Shown: piece by piece, positions 13,153 to 23,311 of the stretch
Layout: the number at the start of each line of letters is the position of its first letter
Numbering within the stretch: position 1 is the stretch's first letter
Assembly (NCBI GenBank): GCA_965261055.1
Contig: OZ253440.1
Location: 625,564 to 689,563 of the forward strand
Source: Fibrobacteria bacterium
GTDB taxonomy: Bacteria > Fibrobacterota > Fibrobacteria > UBA11236 > JADFYW01
Length of the DNA: 64,000 nucleotides
Reading direction: 5' to 3'
The notes under the pieces: generated by a model
What the model saw: only the letters and a program-made list of their open reading frames with translations
The model's database searches: none
What the model was told of the DNA's origin: nothing
Program-made: the position numbers and the translations under genes

Positions 13153-14721
13153 ATGGGTGAAGAACAAAAACAACAACTAGAACAGCAACTGTGGAATATT
13201 GCTGATACCCTTAGGGGAAAAATGAATGCCGATGAGTTTAGAGATTATATATTGGGTTTTATTTTCTTTAAGTATCTATCAGAAAAAATGCACCTATATG
13301 CCAATGAAGAATTACAAAACGACAATATTTTATATAAAGATATAAATGAAAATACTTTTGAGGGTAAAGAATATTTAAAAGCAATTAGCGAAGGATCATT
13401 AAGTAAATTGGGTTATTTTTTAAAGCCTTCAGAATTATTTTCTAATGTATCAGCTAAGGGAAATTCATTAGCAGGGGGCGATACATTTATTCTTCAAGAT
13501 TTAGCGACTATCCTTAAAAATATTGAACAAAGTACACTAGGAACTGAAAGCGAAGATGACTTTGGTAATTTATTTGAAGATTTAGACCTTACCTCAACGA
13601 AGCTAGGTAAAACAGATGAGCAAAGAAATGTTATTATTTCAAAGGTATTAGCTCATTTGGATAAGATAGATTTTCAGTTAGAAAACATTGAGCTTGATGT
13701 ATTAGGAGATGCTTATGAATACCTAATTTCACAATTTGCAAGCGGTGCAGGTAAAAAGGCAGGAGAGTTTTACACTCCTCAAGAAGTCTCTAAAATTTTA
13801 GCCAAAATAGTGACCACAGGAAAAAGTAAATTAAAAAATGTATATGATCCTACTTGTGGTTCAGGTTCTTTACTCTTGCGTGTTGCCAAAGAGGTTAAAG
13901 ATGTTTCGGCTTTTTATGGTCAGGAGATGAACCGAACGACTTACAATTTAGCACGAATGAATATGATACTTCATGATGTGCATTATAAGAAATTTGATAT
14001 AAAACAAGAAGATACTTTGGAGCGTCCTCAACATATTGATGAGCGTTTTGAAGCTATTGTCGCCAATCCTCCTTTTAGTGCCAAATGGAGTGCGAATCCT
14101 TTACATATGAGTGATGATCGTTTTAGCCAATATGGTAAATTAGCTCCCAAGAGTAAAGCCGATTATGCCTTTTTACAGCATATGATACATCAATTAGCAG
14201 AAAATGGTACTATGGGGATTGTATTGCCTCACGGGGCTTTGTTTAGAGGAGCCGCTGAAGGACATATAAGAAAGTATCTCATTGAGGATAGAAACTATTT
14301 AGATACGGTGATTGGTTTACCTGCTAATGTATTTTATGGAACAAGTATTCCTACTTGTATTTTGGTGTTTAAAAAGTGTAGAGAACACAGTGATAATATC
14401 TTATTCATTGATGCTTCTGGACATTATGAAAAAGTACAAACTCAAAATGTATTAAGAGAAAAACATATAGATAAAATTGTAAACACTTATCGAAATAGGA
14501 CGACCGAAGACAAGTATAGCTATGTGGTATCTATGGAGGAGGTGAAAGAAAATGATTACAACCTCAACATTCCGAGATATGTAGATACTTTTGAAGAAGA
14601 ACAGCCTATTGATTTGGAGGCAGTGAGTAATGAGTTGCAATCTTTAGAAAGTGATATTGTTAAGACCGATAAAACCATTGTAAATTTTTGTAAAGAACTC
14701 AATATTAAAACTCCGTTTTAA
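13153..14721 (+). CDS. hsdM: Type I restriction-modification system DNA N6-adenine methyltransferase subunit M
   Basis: 522 aa with an HsdM N-terminal domain, a SAM motif I DPTCGSGSLL and a catalytic motif IV ANPPFS. Confidence 0.95.
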   Translation: MGEEQKQQLEQQLWNIADTLRGKMNADEFRDYILGFIFFKYLSEKMHLYANEELQNDNILYKDINENTFEGKEYLKAISEGSLSKLGYFLKPSELFSNVSAKGNSLAGGDTFILQDLATILKNIEQSTLGTESEDDFGNLFEDLDLTSTKLGKTDEQRNVIISKVLAHLDKIDFQLENIELDVLGDAYEYLISQFASGAGKKAGEFYTPQEVSKILAKIVTTGKSKLKNVYDPTCGSGSLLLRVAKEVKDVSAFYGQEMNRTTYNLARMNMILHDVHYKKFDIKQEDTLERPQHIDERFEAIVANPPFSAKWSANPLHMSDDRFSQYGKLAPKSKADYAFLQHMIHQLAENGTMGIVLPHGALFRGAAEGHIRKYLIEDRNYLDTVIGLPANVFYGTSIPTCILVFKKCREHSDNILFIDASGHYEKVQTQNVLREKHIDKIVNTYRNRTTEDKYSYVVSMEEVKENDYNLNIPRYVDTFEEEQPIDLEAVSNELQSLESDIVKTDKTIVNFCKELNIKTPF

Positions 14722-15825
14722 ATGATGAATGTTAAGTATCATAACAATCAATTTCCACCTAAAATTCAGTTAGATGATGAAATTCATAAATTGATTAATC
14801 AAGCGAGAACAGAGTTAGGAAGATACGATGGTTTTTTATCTTCTATGGTTAATAGTCAAGTATTACTCTCTCCATTATTTACACAAGAAGCTGTTTTGTC
14901 TTCAAAAATAGAGGGGACACAGTCTACTTTAACTGAAGTTTTAGAATTTGAAGCTTATGAAGGAAAACAAAATATAACAGAAGCAAAAAGAAATGATATA
15001 AGAGAAGTTCTAAATTACCGTTATGCCTTAAATACTGCCGTTGAATTATTAAAAACCCTCCCTTTGTCTAAAAGAGTGTTTTTAGCTTGTCATAAAGAAC
15101 TAATGAAAAATGCTAGAGGGAAAAATAAAGTCCCTGACGAATATCGAAAAACGCCCGTATGGATTGGAGGGTCTTCTTTTGAATCTGCTCGGTTTATACC
15201 TATTGATGCTAATAAAATTCCTCAAGCAATGAGTGATTTTGAAAAATACCTCCATAATTCAGATGAGTATGATGATTTAATAAAAATAGCTATTTTACAT
15301 GCAGAATTTGAAGCGATTCATCCATTTTTAGACGGAAATGGAAGATTAGGAAGACTATTAATTCCTTTGTATTTATGGAAAAAAGATTTACTAAGCAGTC
15401 AATCATTTTATATGAGTACTTATTTTGAAAATGATCGAGATTCTTATTATGATGGATTATTAGATGTCTCTAAAAACGAGAATTGGTTAGATTGGTGTAA
15501 ATATTTTTTAAAAGGAGTTATTAGTCAATCTAAACAAAATTTAAATCGAGCAAGAAAAATCACACAACTTTATAATGATTTAAAAATCAAAATTCCTACA
15601 CTCACCAAATCTCAATATGGGATTACGGCATTAGACTTTATCTTTAAGGTTAATTATTTTAAGTCTACTACCTTTTATGAAAGGTCTAAAATTCCTAAAC
15701 CTACTGCAAGAAGATTATTAAAGACTTTAGTAGAAAAAGAAATTTTACAGTATACACCCGGCAGTGGTAGAATCCCTAATTTTTACATATTTAAACAATT
15801 GATAGATATGGCAGATGGAAAATAG
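14722..15825 (+). CDS. fic: Fic-family AMPylase (class II, with an N-terminal inhibitory helix)
   Basis: 367 aa with the canonical FIC motif HPFLDGNGRLGR (HxFx[D/E]GNGRxxR). An upstream SxxxEG inhibitory motif (SSKIEG) is present. The start codon abuts the hsdM stop (TAAATG). Confidence 0.9.
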   Translation: MMNVKYHNNQFPPKIQLDDEIHKLINQARTELGRYDGFLSSMVNSQVLLSPLFTQEAVLSSKIEGTQSTLTEVLEFEAYEGKQNITEAKRNDIREVLNYRYALNTAVELLKTLPLSKRVFLACHKELMKNARGKNKVPDEYRKTPVWIGGSSFESARFIPIDANKIPQAMSDFEKYLHNSDEYDDLIKIAILHAEFEAIHPFLDGNGRLGRLLIPLYLWKKDLLSSQSFYMSTYFENDRDSYYDGLLDVSKNENWLDWCKYFLKGVISQSKQNLNRARKITQLYNDLKIKIPTLTKSQYGITALDFIFKVNYFKSTTFYERSKIPKPTARRLLKTLVEKEILQYTPGSGRIPNFYIFKQLIDMADGK

Positions 15826-15903
15826 TTTTGTGGCTCACTTATGTAACACAAAATAGTTTGTGGCTCACTTATGTAACACAAAATAGTTTGTGGCTCACTT
15901 ATA
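15826..15903. repeat. Tandem direct repeat, ~30-bp unit x 2.6 (TTTGTGGCTCACTTATGTAACACAAAATAG), beginning at the fic stop codon and ending 6 nt before the hepT ATG
   Basis: Three head-to-tail copies are read directly (unit 1 has one extra T, and the third copy is truncated after ...CACTTATA). Each full unit contains the ATG-TAA start-stop pair. Confidence 0.9.
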
Positions 15904-15909
15904 GGAATT

Positions 15910-16326
15910 ATGAATGAAGAAAAATTAGATTTATCAGTTTTTGAAAAAGCAATAGTATCATTGAAAAGAGCATTAGATGAGTATCAAAAAGATGAACAGA
16001 ATGAGTTTATCCGTGATTCTTGTATTCAGCGGTTTGAATATTGTTATGAGTCCGCTAAAAAAATATTAATGAGACATTTTAAAAATACTGAAGATGATCC
16101 TACCAGCTTTGATGAGATGAAATTTGAGGAGATAATAAGATTAGGAGCTAAAAAAGCTTTGTTACGACATAGTTGGGATATATGGAATAATTATAGAGAA
16201 AACCGAAATAAAACTTTTCATAGCTATGATGAAACTATTGCCATAGAAATTGTGGAACAAATACCAAAATTTTATACCGAAGTAGACCATTTATTAGATA
16301 AACTCAAGGGATATTATGAAACTTGA
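15910..16326 (+). CDS. hepT: HepT-like HEPN-domain RNase toxin (type VII TA toxin family)
   Basis: 138 aa with the HEPN Rx4HxY motif (RNKTFHSY) near the C-terminus. Its stop overlaps the start of the downstream MNT ORF by 11 nt (ATGAAACTTGA). Confidence 0.85.
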   Translation: MNEEKLDLSVFEKAIVSLKRALDEYQKDEQNEFIRDSCIQRFEYCYESAKKILMRHFKNTEDDPTSFDEMKFEEIIRLGAKKALLRHSWDIWNNYRENRNKTFHSYDETIAIEIVEQIPKFYTEVDHLLDKLKGYYET

Positions 16327-17329
16327 TTTTGACATCAATAAAGAACAGTTTGCTATTGTTCAAAATGTTTTAGAACAACATTTGCCTGTAGATTGTAAAG
16401 TTTGGATATTTGGTAGTCGTGCCAAAAATACCGCTCAAGATTATTCTGATTTGGATTTAGCCTTAGAAGGCAAGGAAAAAATAGATAAAGCAATCATTTC
16501 ACAATTAAAAGAAGCATTTGAAGGTTCGCTATTACCTTATACAGTAGATATTTTAGATTTGAATGATATATCAAATGAATTTAAAACAATCATAGATCAA
16601 CAAAAAATCTTATTCTCAATAGAAGAAAATAAAGCAATATCTAAGTTGAGGTTTAAAAATGAGAACGGCAATGACTATCCCGATTGGCAAGAGAAAAAGT
16701 TGGGGGAGGTTTTTCATTCAAAGAAAGGTAGCGGTCTATCAAAAAAAAATATAGTTAGTGATGGAAAATATAAATGTATACTATATGGTACATTATTTAC
16801 AAAATATGATGAAATTATTGATGAGGTAATAGACAGTACAAATGAAGAAGGTAAGGTTAAATCTCAAATTGGAGATTTACTAGTTCCCACATCAACGACA
16901 ACAACAGGAATTGATTTGGCTAACTTTACAGCATTAAATAAAGAAGGGGTATTATTAAGTGGGGATATTACTATTTTAAAATTTAATAAAAAAGGTGATA
17001 ATGTTTATTGGGCATACTATTTAACACATTATAAGAAATATGAACTTGCAAGATATGCTCAGGGAACAACAATAGTACATATATATTTTTCTCATTTTAA
17101 AAAAACTCAAATTGAAGAGCCTTCTCTCCCCGAACAAAAAAAGATAGCGAACTTTCTTTGTTCTGTAGATGAAAAGATTGAGAAACTAACTAGGAAAAAA
17201 GAATTATTACAGGAATACAAGAAAGGTATTATGCAAAAAATCTTTTCTCAAGAATTACGCTTTAAAGATGAGAACAACAATCACTATCCCGATTGGGACG
17301 AGAAAAAGTTGGGGGGGGGTGTTGTTTGA
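16316..17329 (+). CDS. hsdS: MNT nucleotidyltransferase (HepT-cognate antitoxin domain) fused in-frame to HsdS N-terminal half (TRD1 + central conserved region); truncated by a frameshift at the G9 tract
   Basis: Residues 1-105 carry the minimal nucleotidyltransferase motif GSRAKNTAQDYSDLDLAL (GS..DxD). There is no stop before LRFKNENGNDYPDWQEKKLGEVF, the HsdS N-terminal conserved start. This is followed by TRD1 and the central conserved EQKKIANFLCSVDEKIEKL. The ORF ends DEKKLGGGVV* inside the duplicated N-conserved motif because of the G9 run. Confidence 0.85.
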   Translation: MKLDFDINKEQFAIVQNVLEQHLPVDCKVWIFGSRAKNTAQDYSDLDLALEGKEKIDKAIISQLKEAFEGSLLPYTVDILDLNDISNEFKTIIDQQKILFSIEENKAISKLRFKNENGNDYPDWQEKKLGEVFHSKKGSGLSKKNIVSDGKYKCILYGTLFTKYDEIIDEVIDSTNEEGKVKSQIGDLLVPTSTTTTGIDLANFTALNKEGVLLSGDITILKFNKKGDNVYWAYYLTHYKKYELARYAQGTTIVHIYFSHFKKTQIEEPSLPEQKKIANFLCSVDEKIEKLTRKKELLQEYKKGIMQKIFSQELRFKDENNNHYPDWDEKKLGGGVV

Positions 17330-17858
17330 ACATAAATTAAAGAGTACAGGAAAAGAAGAAGTTTATTCTGTTTCAGTACATAAAGGTTTAATTAATCAGA
17401 TAGAACATTTAGGCAGGAGCTTTTCTGCTAAAAATACTACCGATTATAGTCTTGTAAAGCCAAATGATATTGTTTATACTAAAAGTCCAACAGGTCAATT
17501 CGCTTATGGAATAATAAAACAAGCGAAAATTAATAAAGATGTAATAGTATCTCCTCTTTATGCTGTTTTTACTCCTGAATCAGAATATCTTGGATATATA
17601 TTTGACATATACTTTGAGTCAAAATATAATACTCATAATTATTTGCATTCTATTATTCAAAAGGGAGCAAAGAATACAATAAATATTACCAATACTACTT
17701 TTCTTTCAAAATCATTTAAACTTCCAATTGATTTCGCTGAACAAAAAAAGATAGCGAACTTCCTTTATTCTGTAGATGCCAAAATAGACTTGGTAAATAC
17801 CCAAAGAGAAAAAACAAAGGTTTTTAAAAAAGGACTTTTACAACAAATGTTTGTGTAA
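17268..17858 (+). CDS. hsdS: HsdS C-terminal half (TRD2 + C-terminal conserved region), in the +1 frame relative to the upstream part
   Basis: ...GGVLFEHKLKSTGKEEVYSV...(TRD2)...FAEQKKIANFLYSVDAKIDLV. The C-terminal conserved repeat duplicates the central one, as in canonical HsdS. The reading frame joins the upstream part if the G-tract is 8 rather than 9. Confidence 0.85.
   Translation: MRTTITIPIGTRKSWGGVLFEHKLKSTGKEEVYSVSVHKGLINQIEHLGRSFSAKNTTDYSLVKPNDIVYTKSPTGQFAYGIIKQAKINKDVIVSPLYAVFTPESEYLGYIFDIYFESKYNTHNYLHSIIQKGAKNTINITNTTFLSKSFKLPIDFAEQKKIANFLYSVDAKIDLVNTQREKTKVFKKGLLQQMFV
17311..17319 (+). repeat. Homopolymeric G9 tract inside hsdS at the TRD1/TRD2 boundary (candidate phase-variation switch)
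   Basis: Nine G are read directly at 17311-17319. The homologous site at the TRD1 start (16701-16708) is GGGGGAGG, an interrupted run. G8 would give KLGGVLFEH in frame with TRD2. Confidence 0.9.
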
Positions 17859-17868
17859 TTAATTATGA

Positions 17869-18924
17869 ATGCGGGAATTACGAATGATGAATGAAACAAA
17901 GAACAATAATTTTAATATACCAAGATGTGTAGATACTTTTAAAAAAGAAGCTGTAGACTTAGAAGCAGTGAGTAATGAGTTGACATTTATTGACCTATTT
18001 GCAGGAATAGGAGGTATAAAACTTGGTTTTGAAAATGCAGGTTTTCAATGTGTCTTTTCTAATGACTTTGATAAGAATTCAAAAATCACATTTGATATAA
18101 ATGTTGCTTTAGATAAGCAAATGATTCTTGGGGATATTCAAAAAATTTCTACAAACGAAATTCCTAATTTTGATATATTATGCGGAGGTTTTCCTTGTCA
18201 GCCATTTTCTGTTGCTGGCTATAGACAAGGATTTAATGATGAAAATGGCAGAGGAAATCTGTTTTTTGATATAGTAAGGATTTTGAAAAATAAAATGCCA
18301 AAAGCATTTTTATTAGAAAATGTAAAAAATCTAAAAACTCATGACAAAGGAAATACAATTAGCATCATTTACCATGAGCTACAAAAGCTAGGTTATAAAA
18401 TTACAAATAAAGTATTAAATACTATGGAATATGGTAATTTACCACAAAACAGAGAGAGAATTTATATTGTTGGTTTTTTAGAGAAAAAATCATTTAATAA
18501 TTTTGAATTTCCAAGCAAAATACCTCTGACAAAAACAATTCATGATTGCCTAGAGAATAAAGAAATTGATGATAAATATTATTACAATGATAAACCTATG
18601 TATGAAAAAATAAAAAATGATATTACTAAAAAAGATACGGTTTATCAATGGAGAAGACAGTATGTTAGAGAAAATAAAAATGGAGTTTGTCCTACATTGA
18701 CTGCAAATATGGGCACAGGAGGACATAATGTACCCTTGGTTCTGAATGGGAAAGGTATAAGAAAATTAACCCCTAGAGAATGTGCAAACTTTCAGGGCTT
18801 TCCCAAAAATTACAAATTTCCTTCTATTGCCGATTCACACCTATATAAACAATTTGGTAATTCTGTTTCTATTCCTGTAATTAATAGAATTGCTCAAAAT
18901 ATGAATTTAGCTTTAATGAAATAA
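17869..18924 (+). CDS. dcm: DNA (cytosine-5)-methyltransferase (Dcm-type, type II RM modification enzyme)
   Basis: 351 aa with motif I FAGIGG, motif IV GFPCQPFS, motif VI ENVKNL, and C-terminal QFGNSVSIPV (motif X). Confidence 0.9.
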   Translation: MRELRMMNETKNNNFNIPRCVDTFKKEAVDLEAVSNELTFIDLFAGIGGIKLGFENAGFQCVFSNDFDKNSKITFDINVALDKQMILGDIQKISTNEIPNFDILCGGFPCQPFSVAGYRQGFNDENGRGNLFFDIVRILKNKMPKAFLLENVKNLKTHDKGNTISIIYHELQKLGYKITNKVLNTMEYGNLPQNRERIYIVGFLEKKSFNNFEFPSKIPLTKTIHDCLENKEIDDKYYYNDKPMYEKIKNDITKKDTVYQWRRQYVRENKNGVCPTLTANMGTGGHNVPLVLNGKGIRKLTPRECANFQGFPKNYKFPSIADSHLYKQFGNSVSIPVINRIAQNMNLALMK

Positions 18925-18926
18925 TT

Positions 18927-20036
18927 GTGTTTTTTAATAATCAAATTGCTAAACAGAAGAAAAAATATCAATCTTTTTTAAAAATTGCTGGTTGTATATC
19001 TAATCTATTTTCTGATTCAAATATTCCCTATCTTTATTATAGAGTTGCAGAAAAAATATTTTGCCGTGCATTTGAAGCAGAAGATTTATCAAGAAGCGAT
19101 GTATCTGCTGATGCAAAGAAAAATGCTCTTGGAATAGGTTTAAAAACTTTCCTACAAGGTAATAATAAAAGTTTTCAAAAAATTGCAGAATTTAATAGCG
19201 ATAGATTATTATATGCGAATCTTGAATCAAAACAACTTGTTGCGAAAATATCAGAGTTGAGAAATAAGAGAATTGAATTTACTCGGAATACATACGAATT
19301 ACAAAATTCAATATACCATTGTATAATTAGAGATTTTGGGAAATTCAAAATCTTTGAAGAACCAATGGACAAAGTGGATATTCATAATATTCGTAATGTT
19401 AAATCCAATAAAAGTTCAATTACTTTTAATGATGAAAAAAATGAATATTCATTTTTACTTGCAAAAAGTACTCTTACAAAAAGATTTATTACGAAACCTA
19501 TTATTTATGAATTTGATGTTGAAATTCTTAAAGATCCATTACTTGAACTCAAAAATATTTTATATCAAAAAGATTTACTACTAGAAACAGAAAATAGAAT
19601 AAAGCAAACTATTTATTTACCTTTGTATGGTAGAGGTTCAACTGTATTTGAGAAAAGTGGACTAAATCAATGGAATGCAGGAGGAAGAGTAAGAGATCCA
19701 AATGAAGTTTATATTCCTATTCCAGCTGAAATTTATAAAAACTTTAAAGATTTTTTTCCCAATAGAGACACTCCATTTAATTTAAAACTTCCAAATGGAA
19801 AAATTATGCAATCTAAAATATGTCAAGATGGAGGTAAAGCTTTAATGTCTTATTCTAACAGAGAGCTTGGGCATTGGATTTTAAGAAGTATTTTAAAATT
19901 AAAAGAAGGAGAATTATTGACCTACGAAAAATTACAAGAAATAGGCATTGATTCAGTGAGTATTAATAAAATCAATAATTTAGAATTTGAGATAAATTTT
20001 ACAAAAATTGGTAGTTATGAAAAATTTATTAAATAA
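18927..20036 (+). CDS. Hypothetical protein; candidate cognate type II restriction endonuclease for the adjacent C5-MTase
   Basis: 369 aa, starting at GTG 2 nt after the dcm stop and co-directional. There is a possible PD-(D/E)xK-like segment EAEDLSRSDVSADAKK. No family is recognised with confidence. The position is classic for an R gene following M. Confidence 0.45.
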   Translation: MFFNNQIAKQKKKYQSFLKIAGCISNLFSDSNIPYLYYRVAEKIFCRAFEAEDLSRSDVSADAKKNALGIGLKTFLQGNNKSFQKIAEFNSDRLLYANLESKQLVAKISELRNKRIEFTRNTYELQNSIYHCIIRDFGKFKIFEEPMDKVDIHNIRNVKSNKSSITFNDEKNEYSFLLAKSTLTKRFITKPIIYEFDVEILKDPLLELKNILYQKDLLLETENRIKQTIYLPLYGRGSTVFEKSGLNQWNAGGRVRDPNEVYIPIPAEIYKNFKDFFPNRDTPFNLKLPNGKIMQSKICQDGGKALMSYSNRELGHWILRSILKLKEGELLTYEKLQEIGIDSVSINKINNLEFEINFTKIGSYEKFIK

Positions 20037-20133: not shown

Positions 20134-22980
20134 ATGACAACACAATCTGAACAAGCATTAGAAAATAATTTAATAGAGCAATTGCTTAAATTTGATAAAT
20201 ACAGTCGTATTAAAATCAAAGGCAAAGCTGACCTACGCGCAAATCTTAAAACACAATTAGAAAAACATAATCATGTTACTTTGTCTGATAAAGAATTTCA
20301 AAAAATTCTTCCTATCCTTAATACAGGAACCGTATTTGAAAGAGCCAAAATATTAAGAGGAATAAGACACCATATTATAAAGGATGATGGAAAGACATTT
20401 TATTTTGAATTCATCAATCAAACAGAATGGTGTAAAAATGAGTTTCAAGTTACCAATCAAGTAACTATAGAGGGTGAATATGAAAATCGTTATGATGTTA
20501 CCATTCTGATTAATGGCTTGCCATTAGTTCAAATAGAGCTTAAACGAAGAGGGTGTGAGATGGGAGAAGCACACAGGCAGATATTACGCTATAAAGATCA
20601 TTCCTTTGCTAGTGGGTCGGCTTTGTTTGAATATGTGCAGTTATTTATCATTAGCAATGGAGTAAATACCAAATATCTTGCTAATAATCGTAAAAGAGAT
20701 TTAAATTTTAAGCAAACCTTTTATTGGGCAGATGAGCAGAATAATAAAATAACCCATTTATCAGAATTTGCTAATGTATTTTTAGAGCCTTGTCATCTAT
20801 CCAAGATGATATGCAAATACATTGTACTTGCCAAAACAGATAAACTATTAATGGTATTGAGACCGTATCAATACTATGCTTGTGAAAAGCTCATAGATAG
20901 AGTTAAAAACACCGATAAGAACGGCTATATATGGCATACCACAGGTAGTGGTAAAACACTCACTTCTTTTAAGGCAAGTCAAATACTCATGCACATGCCC
21001 GAAGTACATAAAGTGGTGTTTGTAGTAGATAGAAGAGACTTGGATTATCAGACGACCAAAGAGTTCAATAATTTTTCTGAAGGTAGTGTAGATGGCACAG
21101 ACAACACCAAAGCTTTAGTAAAACAATTTGGTGATGATACTAAATTATTAGTTACTACTATTCAGAAATTAAATAATGCCATCGGCAGTCAGCGATATAC
21201 TTCTACAATGGAAACATTAAAAGATAAACGAATTGTTTTCATATTTGATGAATGCCACCGTTCCCAATTTGGGGAAACACATCAGCGTATCGTTAAATAC
21301 TTTAATAATCATCAAATGTTTGGTTTTACAGGAACACCAATATTTGCTGATAATGCTGTTAAGAATCAATTAGGTGAAAGAACAACAAAAGAGCTTTTTG
21401 GAGATTGCTTACATAAGTATGTTATCACAGATGCTATTCGTGATGAGAATGTGTTGAGTTTTTCTATTGAGTATGTAGGTAAATATACAGAAAAGAATAC
21501 AAGAAACTATATAGATATAGAAGTAGAAGCAATAGATGAGAGAGAGCTTTTTGATAATGAGGAACGCTTGAATAAAATCACAGATTATATCATTCACAAT
21601 CATGCAACTAAAACACATAGCAAACAATTCACAGCAATGTTTGCAGTTAGTGGCATTGCCACACTAATTAAGTATTATGAGCTTTTTAAAGCTAAAGAAA
21701 AAGAACACAAGTTAAAAGTTGCTACCATTTTTTCTTATTCTGCCAATGAAGAGAATGATGCTGTTGATGGTATCACATTTTTTAATGAAGAGGGTGCTAT
21801 TGAAGATACTCCAAACTCCAAACACAGTAGAGAAAAATTAGATGAGTTTATCGCTGATTACAATAAGATGTTTGGCACTAAGTTTTCTACAAAAGATAGT
21901 CAGTCCTATTACGACTATTATAATGAGATAGCTAAGCGTGTAAAGAATCGTGAAATTGATATTTTGATAGTAGTTAATATGTTTCTTACAGGTTTTGATA
22001 GTAAGCCATTAAACACGCTATATGTAGATAGAAATTTAAAACATCACGGATTAATACAAGCTTTTTCAAGAACTAACAGGATATTAAATAAGAACAAGTC
22101 TCACGGTAATATTGTATCGTTTAGAAACCTTAAGAAAGCGACAGATGAAGCGATTGCCTTATTTTCAAATAAAGATGCTAAAGAGACAATATTACTTAAA
22201 CCATATCAAAATTATTTAAGTGATTTTAATGAGGCTGTAGAGGAGTTAAAACAAATTGCTCCGACTGTAGATAGTGTCAATAATTTATTAACTGAAAGTG
22301 ACGAATTAAAGTTCGTTGAAGCATTTAGAAACTTAATGAGAATACAAAACAAACTTAGTTGTTTTGCTGATTTTTCATTTAAAGATTTACAGATGTCTGA
22401 ACAAGAATTTAAGGATTACAAGAGTAAATACTTAGATATATATGACAAAGTAAATCGCAATAATGATAAAGAAAAAGTATCTGTTTTAGACGATGTGGAT
22501 TTTGAATTAGAGCTTGTACATAAAGATGTTATTAATGTCGATTATATCATTCAGTTACTTTCTCAATTAGTTGAAGCTAAAGACAAAAACTATGAAAATC
22601 AAAAAAAACAAATCTTAGATACACTTTCAGGAGATCTTAATTTAAGAAGCAGAAAAGCATTAATTGAGCAATTTATAGAAGAAAATCTTGTAGGTATTGA
22701 AAATTCTCAAAATGTAGCCGATGAGTTTAAATCATATTGGGATAAGCAGAAAGAAAAAGCATTTAATGATTTATGTGATGAAGAGAGTTTAGATACAAGC
22801 CAAATAAAAGATATAGTAGAAGAATATTTATTTGCTAATCAAGTGCCTGATATGAGAGATAAAATAATGAAGTCTATGTTAAAAAAGGAGACGCTTTTAA
22901 TGCGTCAAAAAACTATCCCAAGAGTAAAAGATAAGATTATGAATTTTGTGAATACCTTTATTGAAGGTATGCCCGCTTGA
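20134..22980 (+). CDS. hsdR: Type I restriction enzyme endonuclease/translocase subunit R
   Basis: 948 aa with SF2 helicase motifs HTTGSGKTLTS (motif I) and DECHRSQ (motif II). It has HsdR N- and C-terminal domains and is the last gene of the co-directional RM array. Confidence 0.95.
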   Translation: MTTQSEQALENNLIEQLLKFDKYSRIKIKGKADLRANLKTQLEKHNHVTLSDKEFQKILPILNTGTVFERAKILRGIRHHIIKDDGKTFYFEFINQTEWCKNEFQVTNQVTIEGEYENRYDVTILINGLPLVQIELKRRGCEMGEAHRQILRYKDHSFASGSALFEYVQLFIISNGVNTKYLANNRKRDLNFKQTFYWADEQNNKITHLSEFANVFLEPCHLSKMICKYIVLAKTDKLLMVLRPYQYYACEKLIDRVKNTDKNGYIWHTTGSGKTLTSFKASQILMHMPEVHKVVFVVDRRDLDYQTTKEFNNFSEGSVDGTDNTKALVKQFGDDTKLLVTTIQKLNNAIGSQRYTSTMETLKDKRIVFIFDECHRSQFGETHQRIVKYFNNHQMFGFTGTPIFADNAVKNQLGERTTKELFGDCLHKYVITDAIRDENVLSFSIEYVGKYTEKNTRNYIDIEVEAIDERELFDNEERLNKITDYIIHNHATKTHSKQFTAMFAVSGIATLIKYYELFKAKEKEHKLKVATIFSYSANEENDAVDGITFFNEEGAIEDTPNSKHSREKLDEFIADYNKMFGTKFSTKDSQSYYDYYNEIAKRVKNREIDILIVVNMFLTGFDSKPLNTLYVDRNLKHHGLIQAFSRTNRILNKNKSHGNIVSFRNLKKATDEAIALFSNKDAKETILLKPYQNYLSDFNEAVEELKQIAPTVDSVNNLLTESDELKFVEAFRNLMRIQNKLSCFADFSFKDLQMSEQEFKDYKSKYLDIYDKVNRNNDKEKVSVLDDVDFELELVHKDVINVDYIIQLLSQLVEAKDKNYENQKKQILDTLSGDLNLRSRKALIEQFIEENLVGIENSQNVADEFKSYWDKQKEKAFNDLCDEESLDTSQIKDIVEEYLFANQVPDMRDKIMKSMLKKETLLMRQKTIPRVKDKIMNFVNTFIEGMPA

Positions 22981-23200: not shown

Positions 23201-23205
23201 CAAAT

Positions 23206-23290
23206 TGCGGACGGGCGGACTTGAACCGCCATGAGAAAATTTCTCACTAGCCCCTCAAGCTAACGTGTCTACCAATTTCACCACGACCGC
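23206..23290 (-). tRNA. tRNA-Leu (anticodon GAG), long variable arm, no encoded CCA
   Basis: The reverse complement is GCGGTCGTGGTGAAATTGGTAGACACGTTAGCTTGAGGGGCTAGTGAGAAATTTTCTCATGGCGGTTCAAGTCCGCCCGTCCGCA. It has a 3-bp D-stem, an anticodon loop TTGAGGG (anticodon GAG), a variable-arm hairpin GAGAAA/TTTCTC, and a T-arm GGCGG-TTCAAGT-CCGCC. There is one U5-U68 mismatch in the acceptor stem. Confidence 0.85.
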
Positions 23291-23311
23291 AAAAGTTGTT
23301 ATAAAAATCAA

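What the first reader, a model, noticed from the sequence alone, without database searches (positions are those of the whole stretch)
14722..15825. Auto-inhibited (class II) Fic AMPylase wedged between hsdM and hsdS with zero intergenic distance
The FIC motif HPFLDGNGRLGR is fully canonical, so the enzyme is predicted to be catalytically competent. An SxxxEG inhibitory-helix motif (SSKIEG) lies upstream in the same polypeptide. The start codon directly abuts the hsdM stop (TAAATG), implying translational coupling to the methyltransferase. A Fic toxin-like enzyme expressed in stoichiometry with an RM system suggests an abortive-infection or addiction role layered on restriction.
Basis: partly seen in the sequence, partly recalled or inferred. 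Interest (0 to 1): 0.5.

Follow-up and report, generated by a model that had tools for sequence, protein, structure and literature searches.

The report
SoFic defence gene inside restriction operon
The gene is a member of the known SoFic family of protein-AMPylating anti-phage enzymes, sitting as a passenger in a type I restriction operon (a known arrangement), but it and all its closest relatives carry a tandem array of 30-bp binding-site-like repeats starting at the stop codon, which I did not find described in the papers I read.

Summary
The ORF, both motifs and the TAA|ATG junction with hsdM are real. The protein is a full-length SoFic-type class II Fic enzyme. It has an N-terminal dimer helix, the inhibitory helix SSKIEG, the core motif HPFLDGNGRLGR and a C-terminal winged helix. 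Support: PADLOC SoFic E=1e-110, and TM 0.83 to the SoFic crystal structures.

SoFic is already a validated single-gene anti-phage system, and Fic/Doc toxins inside restriction operons were described in 2013.

The gene does not touch hsdS. An 84-bp repeat region, a HEPN gene and an MNT domain fused to HsdS lie between them.

In my survey, 8 of the 11 closest relatives sit inside restriction operons, at varying positions. Of 80 more distant loci, 13 have type I genes nearby.

The unexpected result is a 30-bp tandem repeat (2.8 copies here) that begins at the fic stop codon. It occurs in 12 of 12 loci (window plus 11 relatives, at least 53% identity), with 2.5 to 22 copies, whether fic is embedded or stand-alone.

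Each unit holds the inverted repeat TTTGTG…CACAAA. In remoter homologues the same palindrome overlaps the fic promoter -10 box. It is most likely the binding-site array of the enzyme's own winged-helix domain. Its role is untested.

The parts
13153..14721 (+). hsdM, type I N6-adenine methyltransferase subunit (522 aa). Its stop codon abuts the fic start codon.
   Evidence: Pfam N6_Mtase 3.7e-114, HsdM_N 5.9e-17. PADLOC MTase_I 2.4e-167. Junction read.
14722..15825 (+). fic, a SoFic-type class II Fic AMP-transferase (367 aa). Predicted parts: dimerisation helix aa 19-41, inhibitory helix aa 50-63, Fic core, C-terminal winged helix aa ~296-367.
14899..14916 (+). Inhibitory motif S60-S-K-I-E64-G65 ([S/T]xxxE[G/N]).
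   Evidence: Aligned with SoFic SSEIEN (E73). S60, S61, I63, E64 and G65 are invariant in 28 relatives.
15319..15354 (+). Fic active-site motif H200-PFLDGNGRLG-R211.
   Evidence: Read. Invariant in alignment A1.
15607..15822 (+). C-terminal winged helix-turn-helix domain. The putative recognition helix is aa 326-338 (PTARRLLKTLVE).
   Evidence: Secondary structure H300-309, E312-314, H315-321, H326-338, E343-345, E354-356. Full-length superposition on SoFic. Weak Pfam HTH_IclR hit at aa 320-345.
15819..15902 (+). Tandem array of 2.8 copies of the 30-bp unit AAAATAGTTTGTGGCTCACTTATGTAACAC. It begins inside the last two codons of fic. Each unit holds the inverted repeat TTTGTG..CACAAA. I read it as the binding-site (operator) array of the Fic winged helix.
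   Evidence: TRF score 159. The motif is unique in the window, 0 expected. Arrays are conserved at the same place in 11 of 11 closest relatives. The same palindrome overlaps the fic promoter in remoter homologues.
15910..16326 (+). HEPN-type toxin (HI0074 / NTase_sub_bind family, 138 aa).
   Evidence: Pfam PF08780 4.4e-29. NCBIfam TIGR01987 68 bits, above the cut-off of 55.8.
16316..17329 (+). MNT (MntA-like minimal nucleotidyltransferase, aa 1-~105) fused in frame to the first target-recognition half of HsdS (aa ~106-337). It overlaps the HEPN gene by 11 nt.
   Evidence: Pfam Polbeta 8.1e-12 and Methylase_S 6.3e-17. NCBIfam MntA 45.8 bits, below the cut-off of 60. PADLOC Specificity_I model PDLC03138 also covers aa 6-99.
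17311..17319 (+). G9 homopolymer that frameshifts hsdS. G8 would restore one continuous reading frame.
   Evidence: Sequence. ORFs.
17268..17858 (+). Second half of HsdS (TRD2), in another reading frame.
   Evidence: Pfam Methylase_S 7.2e-07. PADLOC Specificity_I 4.1e-35.
17869..20036 (+). Inserted type II cassette: an m5C DNA methyltransferase (17869-18924) and an NgoFVII-like endonuclease (18927-20036).
   Evidence: Pfam DNA_methylase 5.7e-94 and RE_NgoFVII_C 2.1e-14. PADLOC MTase_II 2.2e-125 and REase_II 2.8e-104.
20134..22980 (+). hsdR, type I restriction subunit (948 aa).
   Evidence: Pfam HSDR_N, SWI2_SNF2, T1R_D3-like and EcoR124_C. PADLOC REase_I, 1037 bits.
23205..23291 (-). tRNA-Leu(GAG) flanking the island, a possible integration site.
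   Evidence: ARAGORN. Rfam.

Best explanation
SHOWN by sequence, profile and fold. The ORF encodes a SoFic-family class II Fic enzyme with an intact catalytic motif, an N-terminal inhibitory helix and a C-terminal winged helix. It sits in one co-directional gene string: hsdM, fic, repeat array, HEPN, MNT::hsdS, type II m5C RM pair, hsdR. The string lies beside a tRNA-Leu gene. The fic start codon abuts the hsdM stop codon.

INFERRED from characterised homologues. Fic is co-transcribed and probably translationally coupled with hsdM. It acts as a dimeric AMPylase/deAMPylase. When switched to net AMPylation during phage infection it modifies an essential host protein (EF-Tu switch I in SoFic) and arrests translation. 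That would be an abortive-infection layer behind restriction. The HEPN-MNT pair would be a further, RNA-directed layer.

INFERRED from comparative genomics done here. The 30-bp tandem array that begins at the fic stop codon is the cognate DNA site array of the enzyme's own winged-helix domain. Where homologues have their own promoter, the same palindrome overlaps the -10 box, which points to autorepression. In this subfamily the sites are multiplied directly 3' of the gene. There they could block or tune transcription into the downstream restriction genes. They could also hold the dimer on DNA. DNA binding is known to switch catalysis in the related enzyme CbFic2.

Confidence by step: family, fold and gene order about 0.95; defence role by AMPylation about 0.7; EF-Tu as the target about 0.45; array as winged-helix DNA sites about 0.6. 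The overall figure given is for the composite.
For: Family and fold:
- PADLOC SoFic 1.2e-110 over aa 5-364.
- Pfam Fic_N and Fic.
- SoFic is the best solved relative, E~3e-28, with SSKIEG aligned on SSEIEN.
- AF2 model pLDDT 89.3, TM 0.82-0.83 to 3zcn/3eqx/3zec.
- More than 7,900 homologues at E<=1e-10.

Context:
- 8 of the 11 closest relatives (53-70% identity) lie inside RM operons. Six are type I, one is a PLD/SNF2 plus Eco57I-like system, one is type III.
- 13 of 80 GTDB loci have type I genes within 10 kb, and 8 are embedded on the same strand.
- Type I subunits are the commonest Pfam families among immediate neighbours.

Array:
- Present in 12 of 12 loci, 2.5-22 copies. It starts 0-15 nt from the stop codon. 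The period is 30 bp in 11 of 12. It occurs in embedded and stand-alone loci alike.
- In 38-41% identity homologues, the motif TTGTGTCTCAC..TATAAT..TTACACAA and the perfect palindrome TTGTGTCTCA-TAAG-TGAGACACAA lie 25-130 nt upstream of the fic ATG.
- Palindromes are enriched downstream in the near branch (19/25 vs 20/181 control windows) and upstream in the far branch (31/51 vs 42/320).
- Recognition-helix Arg331 co-occurs with the xCA half-site core (26/0 vs 2/6).
- The window array has no RNA-fold signal, z=-0.13.

Literature:
- CccR footprint on inverted repeats in its own promoter (PMC9755527).
- SoFic dimer binds its own promoter DNA and AMPylates EF-Tu (10.64898/2026.07.09.737422).
- DNA binding regulates CbFic2 catalysis (PMC10628234).
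- EcSofic is toxic (PMC12249575).
- A three-level RM + HEPN + DOC defence was proposed in PMC3710099.
Against: - No experiment exists on this protein. Identity to SoFic is only ~25%. It scores 167.8 bits against the NCBIfam SoFic equivalog cut-off of 550. Target and regulation may therefore differ.
- hsdS is frameshifted, so the type I system may be off or decaying.
- The Arg331/half-site association rests on only about two independent lineages.
- Several remoter arrays contain long perfect stems (13-15 bp) with loops of variable length. That fits hairpins as well as operators. G:T mismatches outnumber A:C 10 to 5, which is not significant.
- A site array 3' of the regulator's own gene, also present where no co-directional gene follows (L084-L086), is not explained by simple operator logic.
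- A Novosphingobium plasmid homologue (45.5% identity) shows no such motif.
Confidence: 0.65

Rival explanations
1. The array works as RNA, not DNA. It is transcribed as the 3' end of the fic mRNA and forms repeated hairpins. These would bind and neutralise Fic like a type III antitoxin, or control mRNA stability or translation. Phage-induced transcription shut-off would then release the enzyme.
For: - The array abuts the stop codon in 12 of 12 loci and always has the same orientation as fic, so it must be co-transcribed.
- Remoter relatives have 13-15-bp perfect stems with loops of 4-16 nt. The inner stem bases differ between species yet stay complementary.
- There is a slight excess of G:T over A:C mismatches, 10 vs 5.
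- A downstream 47-aa 'AS1' antitoxin of EcSofic could not be purified as a protein (PMC12249575).
Against: - The window array folds no better than shuffles, z=-0.13. Units in the window, L085 and L086 have only 5-6 A/U-rich pairs.
- The same motif occurs upstream of fic wrapped around a TATAAT box, which is operator behaviour.
- No Rfam family matches.
- Homologous winged helices bind dsDNA (PMC9755527, PMC10628234).
- Fic is not a ribonuclease that could process such an array.
Confidence: 0.15
2. Here the protein is chiefly a transcription factor, a controller (C-protein-like) element. By binding the array it sets the level or timing of the downstream HEPN-MNT::hsdS...hsdR genes. AMPylation would be secondary or vestigial.
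For: - In RM-embedded loci the array always lies between fic and the next restriction gene: hsdR in L082/L083, hsdS in L087/L228, res in L229, a methyltransferase in L227.
- Far-branch loci have sites both at the fic promoter and in front of the next gene.
- CccR is a proven autorepressor (PMC9755527).
Against: - The catalytic and inhibitory motifs are invariant across 28 relatives, so the enzyme is under selection.
- The longest arrays (17-22 units) are in stand-alone loci with no co-directional downstream gene.
- SoFic alone confers phage defence (10.1101/2022.05.11.491447).
Confidence: 0.2
3. Fic is an addiction (post-segregational killing) module that only stabilises the restriction island and has no role against phage.
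For: - Fic/Doc toxins are classical addiction toxins (PMC2701414).
- The island lies next to a tRNA gene and is mosaic.
- Homologues are frequent on conjugative plasmids, 273 of 481 plasmid hits.
Against: - No separate labile antitoxin gene is present.
- The family has a measured anti-phage phenotype (cited in PMC11514479 and PMC12249575).
- The gene co-occurs with other defence genes in most close relatives.
Confidence: 0.12
4. The locus is decaying. The frameshifted hsdS and the inserted type II cassette would indicate a dead type I system, with fic as a relic that is no longer expressed usefully.
For: - G9 frameshift in hsdS.
- A scar of an hsdM 3' end sits at the start of the m5C methylase gene.
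Against: - fic, hsdM, hsdR, HEPN and the type II pair are all intact full-length ORFs.
- A homopolymer frameshift is as likely to be phase variation or a long-read sequencing error.
- The array is intact and the motifs are conserved.
Confidence: 0.08

Closest known systems
SoFic (Shewanella oneidensis SO_4266; PDB 3eqx, 3zcn, 3zec) and the 'SoFic' single-gene anti-phage system of Millman et al. 2022
   Same: Same domain order: dimer helix, class II inhibitory helix, Fic core, C-terminal winged helix. Same motifs. Full-length fold match at TM 0.83. Found in defence islands.
   Different: Only ~25% identical, and below NCBIfam's equivalog cut-off. SoFic has its own 300-bp promoter region, to which it binds. 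Here there is no upstream spacer at all, and the putative sites form a tandem array 3' of the gene.
EcSofic with the AS1 antitoxin (E. coli H397; PDB 9vjc; PMC12249575)
   Same: A toxic class II Fic enzyme whose dimerisation and C-terminal domain are needed for toxicity. In both cases something immediately downstream of the gene modulates it.
   Different: AS1 is described as a 47-aa protein. Here the only ORFs in the 84-bp downstream region are repeat-derived (29 and 32 aa). Whether AS1 overlaps a site array could not be checked.
CccR (Yersinia pseudotuberculosis Fic-wHTH; PDB 7xux; PMC9755527)
   Same: A Fic toxin with a C-terminal HTH. As a dimer it binds inverted repeats next to its own gene and autoregulates.
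   Different: CccR has one operator (two 10-bp arms 26 bp apart) in its promoter and is a T6SS effector. Here there are 30-bp units in tandem after the stop codon, in a restriction operon.
CbFic2 (Coxiella burnetii; PDB 8cil; PMC10628234)
   Same: A class II Fic with an HTH domain. DNA binding switches it between AMPylation and deAMPylation, which is a precedent for DNA sites controlling catalysis.
   Different: It is a secreted effector acting on host histone H3. Its DNA binding is largely non-specific.
PrrC-EcoprrI and RloC/DOC/RhuM genes embedded in type I RM operons (Anantharaman et al. 2013, PMC3710099)
   Same: A latent toxin gene sits inside a type I RM operon as a second line of defence. 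RM + HEPN + DOC 'three-level' loci are already described there.
   Different: The HEPN here is the small MNT-paired type, not an ABC-HEPN anticodon nuclease. No physical Fic-HsdMSR interaction is known.
ToxIN-type (type III) toxin-antitoxin systems
   Same: A tandem array of ~30-40-nt repeats directly adjacent to a toxin gene of an abortive-infection system.
   Different: ToxI lies upstream of the toxin, behind a terminator. It is processed by the endoribonuclease toxin and folds into defined pseudoknots. Here the array is downstream, the toxin is not an RNase, and the window array shows no fold signal.

Membership tests
Catalytically competent Fic (Fido) AMP-transferase | Active-site motif HxFx(D/E)GNGRxxR | tested here: met
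   H200-PFLDGNGRLG-R211. Invariant in 28 relatives. Pfam Fic 8.6e-18.
Catalytically competent Fic (Fido) AMP-transferase | Demonstrated AMP transfer to a target protein | not testable with these tools
   Needs biochemistry. Homologues SoFic and EcSofic are active (10.64898/2026.07.09.737422; PMC12249575).
Class II Fic (Engel et al. 2012 classification) | [S/T]xxxE[G/N] inhibitory motif on a helix N-terminal to the Fic core in the same polypeptide | tested here: met
   S60-SKI-E64-G65 lies in predicted helix 50-63 and aligns with SoFic SSEIEN/E73. Pfam Fic_N 1.8e-25.
Class II Fic (Engel et al. 2012 classification) | The inhibitory Glu reaches the active site and obstructs the ATP gamma-phosphate position | tested here: inconclusive
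SoFic anti-phage defence family (PADLOC / Millman 2022) | Full-length match to the SoFic profile | tested here: met
   PDLC03963, E=1.2e-110, 368 bits, aa 5-364 on profile positions 8-358 of 361.
SoFic anti-phage defence family (PADLOC / Millman 2022) | NCBIfam equivalog NF046030 (protein adenylyltransferase SoFic) at or above the curated cut-off | tested here: not met
   167.8 bits against a cut-off of 550. It is a family member but not an equivalog of the S. oneidensis or enterobacterial enzyme.
SoFic anti-phage defence family (PADLOC / Millman 2022) | C-terminal winged-helix domain and N-terminal dimerisation helix | tested here: met
   Predicted helix 19-41 and a wHTH topology at aa 300-364. 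Full-length superposition on SoFic. Dimerisation itself was not tested.
SoFic anti-phage defence family (PADLOC / Millman 2022) | Protection against phage when expressed | not testable with these tools
   Experimental only.
Type I restriction-modification operon | hsdM, hsdS and hsdR all present and intact | tested here: inconclusive
   hsdM and hsdR are intact. hsdS is split by a G9 frameshift and fused to MNT.
Type VII HEPN-MNT toxin-antitoxin | An HI0074-type HEPN next to an MntA-type nucleotidyltransferase | tested here: met
   HEPN: TIGR01987, 68 bits against a cut-off of 55.8. MNT: Polbeta 8.1e-12, but MntA scores 45.8 bits against a cut-off of 60, and the domain is fused to HsdS.
Type III (ToxIN-like) toxin-antitoxin | Repeat array upstream of an endoribonuclease toxin; structured, processed RNA | tested here: not met
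   The array is downstream. The toxin is a Fic enzyme. RNA fold z=-0.13. No Rfam match.
Autoregulated Fic-wHTH (CccR-like) | Inverted-repeat DNA sites next to its own gene, bound by the C-terminal HTH | tested here: inconclusive
   Sites are present, conserved and enriched and co-vary with the recognition helix. Binding itself was not tested.

The most novel reading that the evidence does not exclude
The 3' array would be a cis-encoded nucleic-acid partner of the toxin: a DNA 'parking lot' (or its transcript) of 3 to 22 cognate sites. It would hold SoFic dimers in the harmless deAMPylating state. When a phage degrades host DNA or shuts off host transcription (as T5, the phage SoFic stops, is known to do; this point is from memory), the enzyme would be released or switched. 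On this reading, SoFic systems of this branch are two-component toxin/non-protein-antitoxin modules, and the unpurifiable 'AS1' of EcSofic could be the same kind of element.
Probability: 0.2. Interest if true: 0.75.

Novelty: new variant of a known kind. Interest (0 to 1): 0.45.

Why it matters
The finding as submitted (a class II Fic inside a type I operon, implying layered abortive infection) restates what is already known for SoFic and for DOC/HEPN passengers of restriction operons.

The survey adds a concrete, testable handle on the main open question for SoFic-type defence: how a constitutively made, potentially lethal AMPylase is kept quiet and then triggered. A conserved array of its own binding sites, fixed at the stop codon of the gene with a conserved 30-bp period and variable copy number, is an obvious candidate for that control.

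The array also explains spurious small or repetitive ORF calls next to these genes. If it works as a transcriptional roadblock, it would further show a defence toxin acting as the controller of neighbouring restriction genes.

Tried and rejected
- Exact look-up of the window's Fic protein in the contig index: not on record.
- Metagenome scan with the single protein: 217 pattern matches, none a relative.
Fifteen loci nevertheless had fic beside the motif. The same pattern in viral contigs gave 13 single matches and no arrays.
- Promoter/terminator consensus scan of the operon: uninformative in 30% GC DNA (62 found vs 60.9 expected). No + strand terminator inside the operon.
- Repeat array as coding sequence: rejected. 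One frame per strand is open, but the frame relative to fic and the in-frame stops are not conserved between loci.
- Repeat array as a known RNA family: no Rfam match.
- Repeat array as an RNA hairpin array in the window: no fold signal.
- G:T versus A:C mismatch asymmetry as an RNA test: 10 vs 5, not decisive.
- Origin of the SoFic gene name 'mloA'. I recall it as the 'M-linked ORF' of Campylobacter jejuni type I loci (Miller et al. 2005), but this could not be verified because the paper is not held. Makarova et al. 2011 is also not held.
- Whether EcSofic's AS1 overlaps a site array: I reached an E. coli chromosomal fic inside an ICE but could not establish that it is the H397 gene, so I dropped it.
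- A Novosphingobium plasmid homologue (45.5% identity) shows no recognisable motif, so the feature is not universal in the family.
Full report
**1. Observation**

ORF 14722..15825 (+) encodes 367 aa. HPFLDGNGRLGR is aa 200-211 and SSKIEG is aa 60-65. The hsdM stop TAA (14719-14721) is directly followed by the fic ATG. So the coordinates, both motifs and the junction are correct.

The phrase 'wedged between hsdM and hsdS with zero intergenic distance' holds only upstream. Downstream the order is:
- an 84-bp spacer made of a 30-bp x2.8 tandem repeat (15819-15902);
- a HEPN gene (15910-16326);
- an ORF (16316-17329) whose first ~105 aa are an MNT nucleotidyltransferase and whose remainder is the first half of HsdS.

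The second HsdS half (17268-17858) is in another frame because of a G9 run at 17311-17319. A type II m5C methylase plus an NgoFVII-like endonuclease (17869-20036) separates hsdS from hsdR (20134-22980). A tRNA-Leu gene flanks the island.

**2. What the protein is**

- Pfam gives Fic_N (1.8e-25) and Fic (8.6e-18), plus a weak C-terminal HTH.
- The PADLOC SoFic model matches end to end (E=1.2e-110).
- NCBIfam's SoFic equivalog is the only hit, but it falls far below its cut-off (167.8 vs 550 bits).
- The best solved relatives are the SoFic structures (E~3e-28). SSKIEG aligns on SoFic's SSEIEN, which holds the inhibitory Glu73.
- An AlphaFold2 model built on 28 relatives has pLDDT 89.3. It superposes over its full length on SoFic 3zcn/3eqx/3zec at TM 0.82-0.83.
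- The model shows a long N-terminal helix (19-41), the inhibitory helix (50-63), the Fic core and a winged helix (300-364).

This is a class II, SoFic-type Fic enzyme. The family is very large, with more than 7,900 hits at E<=1e-10.

The host is an uncultured, 30.8% GC bacterium on a 1.6-Mb contig. Its PGK is at most 66% identical to anything else, and the nearest named hits are Fibrobacterota MAGs.

**3. What is known about the family**

- SoFic was reported as a stand-alone Fic defence protein that is common in genomes (10.1101/2022.05.11.491447). It is cited as active against T5.
- EcSofic is toxic as the wild type. It needs dimerisation and its C-terminal domain, and it is neutralised by something encoded just downstream, 'AS1' (PMC12249575).
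- SoFic AMPylates EF-Tu switch I and inhibits translation. It deAMPylates constitutively, and Glu73 is needed for that. It AMPylates only as a dimer, and it binds its own promoter DNA (10.64898/2026.07.09.737422).
- CccR, a related Fic-HTH, footprints on inverted repeats in its own promoter (PMC9755527).
- DNA binding switches the catalysis of CbFic2 (PMC10628234).
- DOC/Fic toxins and HEPN proteins inside RM operons, read as a three-level defence, were described in 2013 (PMC3710099).

**4.

Eleven closest relatives (53-70% identity):
- Six sit in type I operons at varying positions: hsdM-x-fic, hsdM-x-fic-hsdS, hsdS-fic-hsdR, hsdS-fic, hsdR-fic-hsdS.
- One lies between a PLD/SNF2 helicase and an Eco57I-like methylase.
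- One lies between type III mod and res.
- Three stand alone.

Eighty GTDB loci (33-50% identity):
- Thirteen have type I genes within 10 kb.
- Eight are embedded on the same strand, mostly with 4-bp overlaps.
- hsdM-fic-hsdS occurs in a Methanoculleus and a Planctomycetaceae MAG.
- Pfam scans of the immediate neighbours agree. Methylase_S, N6_Mtase, HSDR_N and ResIII are the commonest families.

Synechocystis pSYSX also has a Fic gene inside a type I cluster.

So the association is real and recurrent. The position within the operon is not fixed.

**5. The unexpected part: the repeat array**

The 30-bp repeat after fic is not a local curiosity. All 11 closest relatives carry an array that starts 0-15 nt from the fic stop codon, in the same orientation. 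The period is 30 bp in ten of them and 26 bp in one. Copy number runs from 2.5 to 22. The units diverge from AT-rich to GC-rich. Arrays occur both in RM-embedded and in stand-alone loci.

Two near-identical loci differ in copy number (6.7 vs 3.7). One contig ends inside the array.

The window unit is AAAATAG-TTTGTGGCTCAC-TTAT-GTAACACAAA. The conserved core is the inverted repeat TTTGTG..CACAAA with a CNCAC inner part.

In the next branch (40-50% identity), one to five such inverted repeats follow the stop codon. The outer core is the same. The inner bases differ between species but stay symmetric.

In a 38-41% identity group, the same motif lies upstream of fic in two forms. One copy encloses a TATAAT box (TTGTGTCTCAC-TTAAGTTATAATGTG-TTACACAA). 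The other is a perfect palindrome (TTGTGTCTCA-TAAG-TGAGACACAA) 25-40 nt before the ATG. Further copies lie in front of the next gene.

Palindromes (10-bp arms, at most 1 mismatch) are enriched relative to control windows:

| Branch | Region | With palindrome | Control windows |
|---|---|---|---|
| Near (L001-L027) | downstream of fic | 19/25 | 20/181 |
| Far (L028-L080) | upstream of fic | 31/51 | 42/320 |

**6. DNA site or RNA?**

For DNA:
- The promoter-overlapping copies.
- The precedents CccR, SoFic and CbFic2.
- No RNA fold signal for the window array, z=-0.13.
- No Rfam family matches.
- A link between recognition-helix residue 331 and the half-site. Arg331 occurs in 26 of 26 loci with an xCA core, and is absent in 6 of 8 others. 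Only about two independent lineages lack Arg, so this is suggestive only.

For RNA:
- Strict abutment to the stop codon.
- Long stems with variable loops in some species.
- A non-significant G:T excess.

I rate the DNA operator array at about 0.6 and the RNA reading at 0.15. Coding was rejected, because frames and stops are not conserved.

**7. Mechanism, with status**

Shown: the family, fold, motifs, gene order, junction, and the conservation and position of the array.

Inferred from homologues: a dimeric AMPylase/deAMPylase that targets an essential translation GTPase, giving an abortive-infection layer behind the RM system, with HEPN-MNT as a further layer.

Inferred here: the winged helix binds the array. 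The consequence could be a roadblock on the downstream HEPN-MNT::hsdS..hsdR genes, or sequestration or catalytic switching of the enzyme. That consequence is open. The longest arrays stand where no co-directional gene follows, which argues that the array serves fic itself.

**8. Verdict**

The submitted finding is a correct identification of a new member of a known defence family in a known kind of context. The conserved 3' site array is a feature I did not find described in the papers I read. It makes this a new variant worth a bench test.

Noticed in passing
window 17311-17319: A G9 homopolymer splits hsdS into two frames. G8 would give one continuous MNT::HsdS ORF (…DWDEKKLGGVLFEHKLK…). This is either a phase-variable tract or a long-read homopolymer error.
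   Followed up: partly
window 16316-17329: An MntA-like nucleotidyltransferase domain is fused in frame to the N-terminus of HsdS, and there is no separate hsdS start codon. A PADLOC Specificity_I model (PDLC03138) also covers the MNT part, so the fusion seems to recur.
   Followed up: partly
window 17869-17990 versus 14570-14650: The first ~35 aa of the m5C methyltransferase (NIPRCVDTFKKEAVDLEAVSNEL) copy the C-terminal region of HsdM (NIPRYVDTFEEEQPIDLEAVSNEL), including 18 identical nucleotides. This looks like a recombination scar of the type II cassette inserted between hsdS and hsdR.
   Followed up: no
L082 and L083, 9808-9845 (+): An abiF RNA motif (Rfam RF03085, 52 bits against a gathering score of 37) lies in the gap upstream of fic in two syntenic Bacteroidota-like loci. 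It is absent from the window and from the other loci scanned.
   Followed up: partly
L081 11132-11362; L228 7109-7324; L085 11108-11779 (-); L086 11109-11726 (-) and the 409-aa P0012: Gene callers place ORFs (71-223 aa), or extend fic itself, across the repeat arrays. These are almost certainly artefacts. The 47-aa 'AS1' downstream of EcSofic should be examined with this in mind.
   Followed up: partly
L082/L083, about 25 nt upstream of the fic ATG: One extra copy of the repeat unit (TTTTGTATCTCACTTATACAACACAAATAA) sits just upstream of fic where the gene has its own intergenic region. These loci therefore have a site on both sides of the gene.
   Followed up: partly
window 23205-23291 (-); L086 9880-9967: tRNA genes directly flank the island in the window (tRNA-Leu) and the stand-alone fic-plus-array module in L086. 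This suggests insertion at tRNA sites.
   Followed up: no
L223 (Synechocystis sp. PCC 6803 plasmid pSYSX): A Fic family gene lies on the opposite strand in the middle of a type I RM cluster that also holds HigB and its regulator. This gives a culturable model organism for the Fic/type I association.
   Followed up: no
L225 (E. coli S10 chromosome 932343-934643): Two adjacent fic genes, the first annotated as frameshifted, lie in an integrative element with a MobH relaxase and ArdC, next to tRNA-Leu. A related fic is present in 278 of 5,426 complete E. coli genomes.
   Followed up: no
window, whole: The host appears to be a deep-branching uncultured bacterium (30.8% GC, 1.6-Mb contig). Its PGK is at most 66% identical to any other sequence, and the nearest named hits are Fibrobacterota MAGs.
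   Followed up: partly
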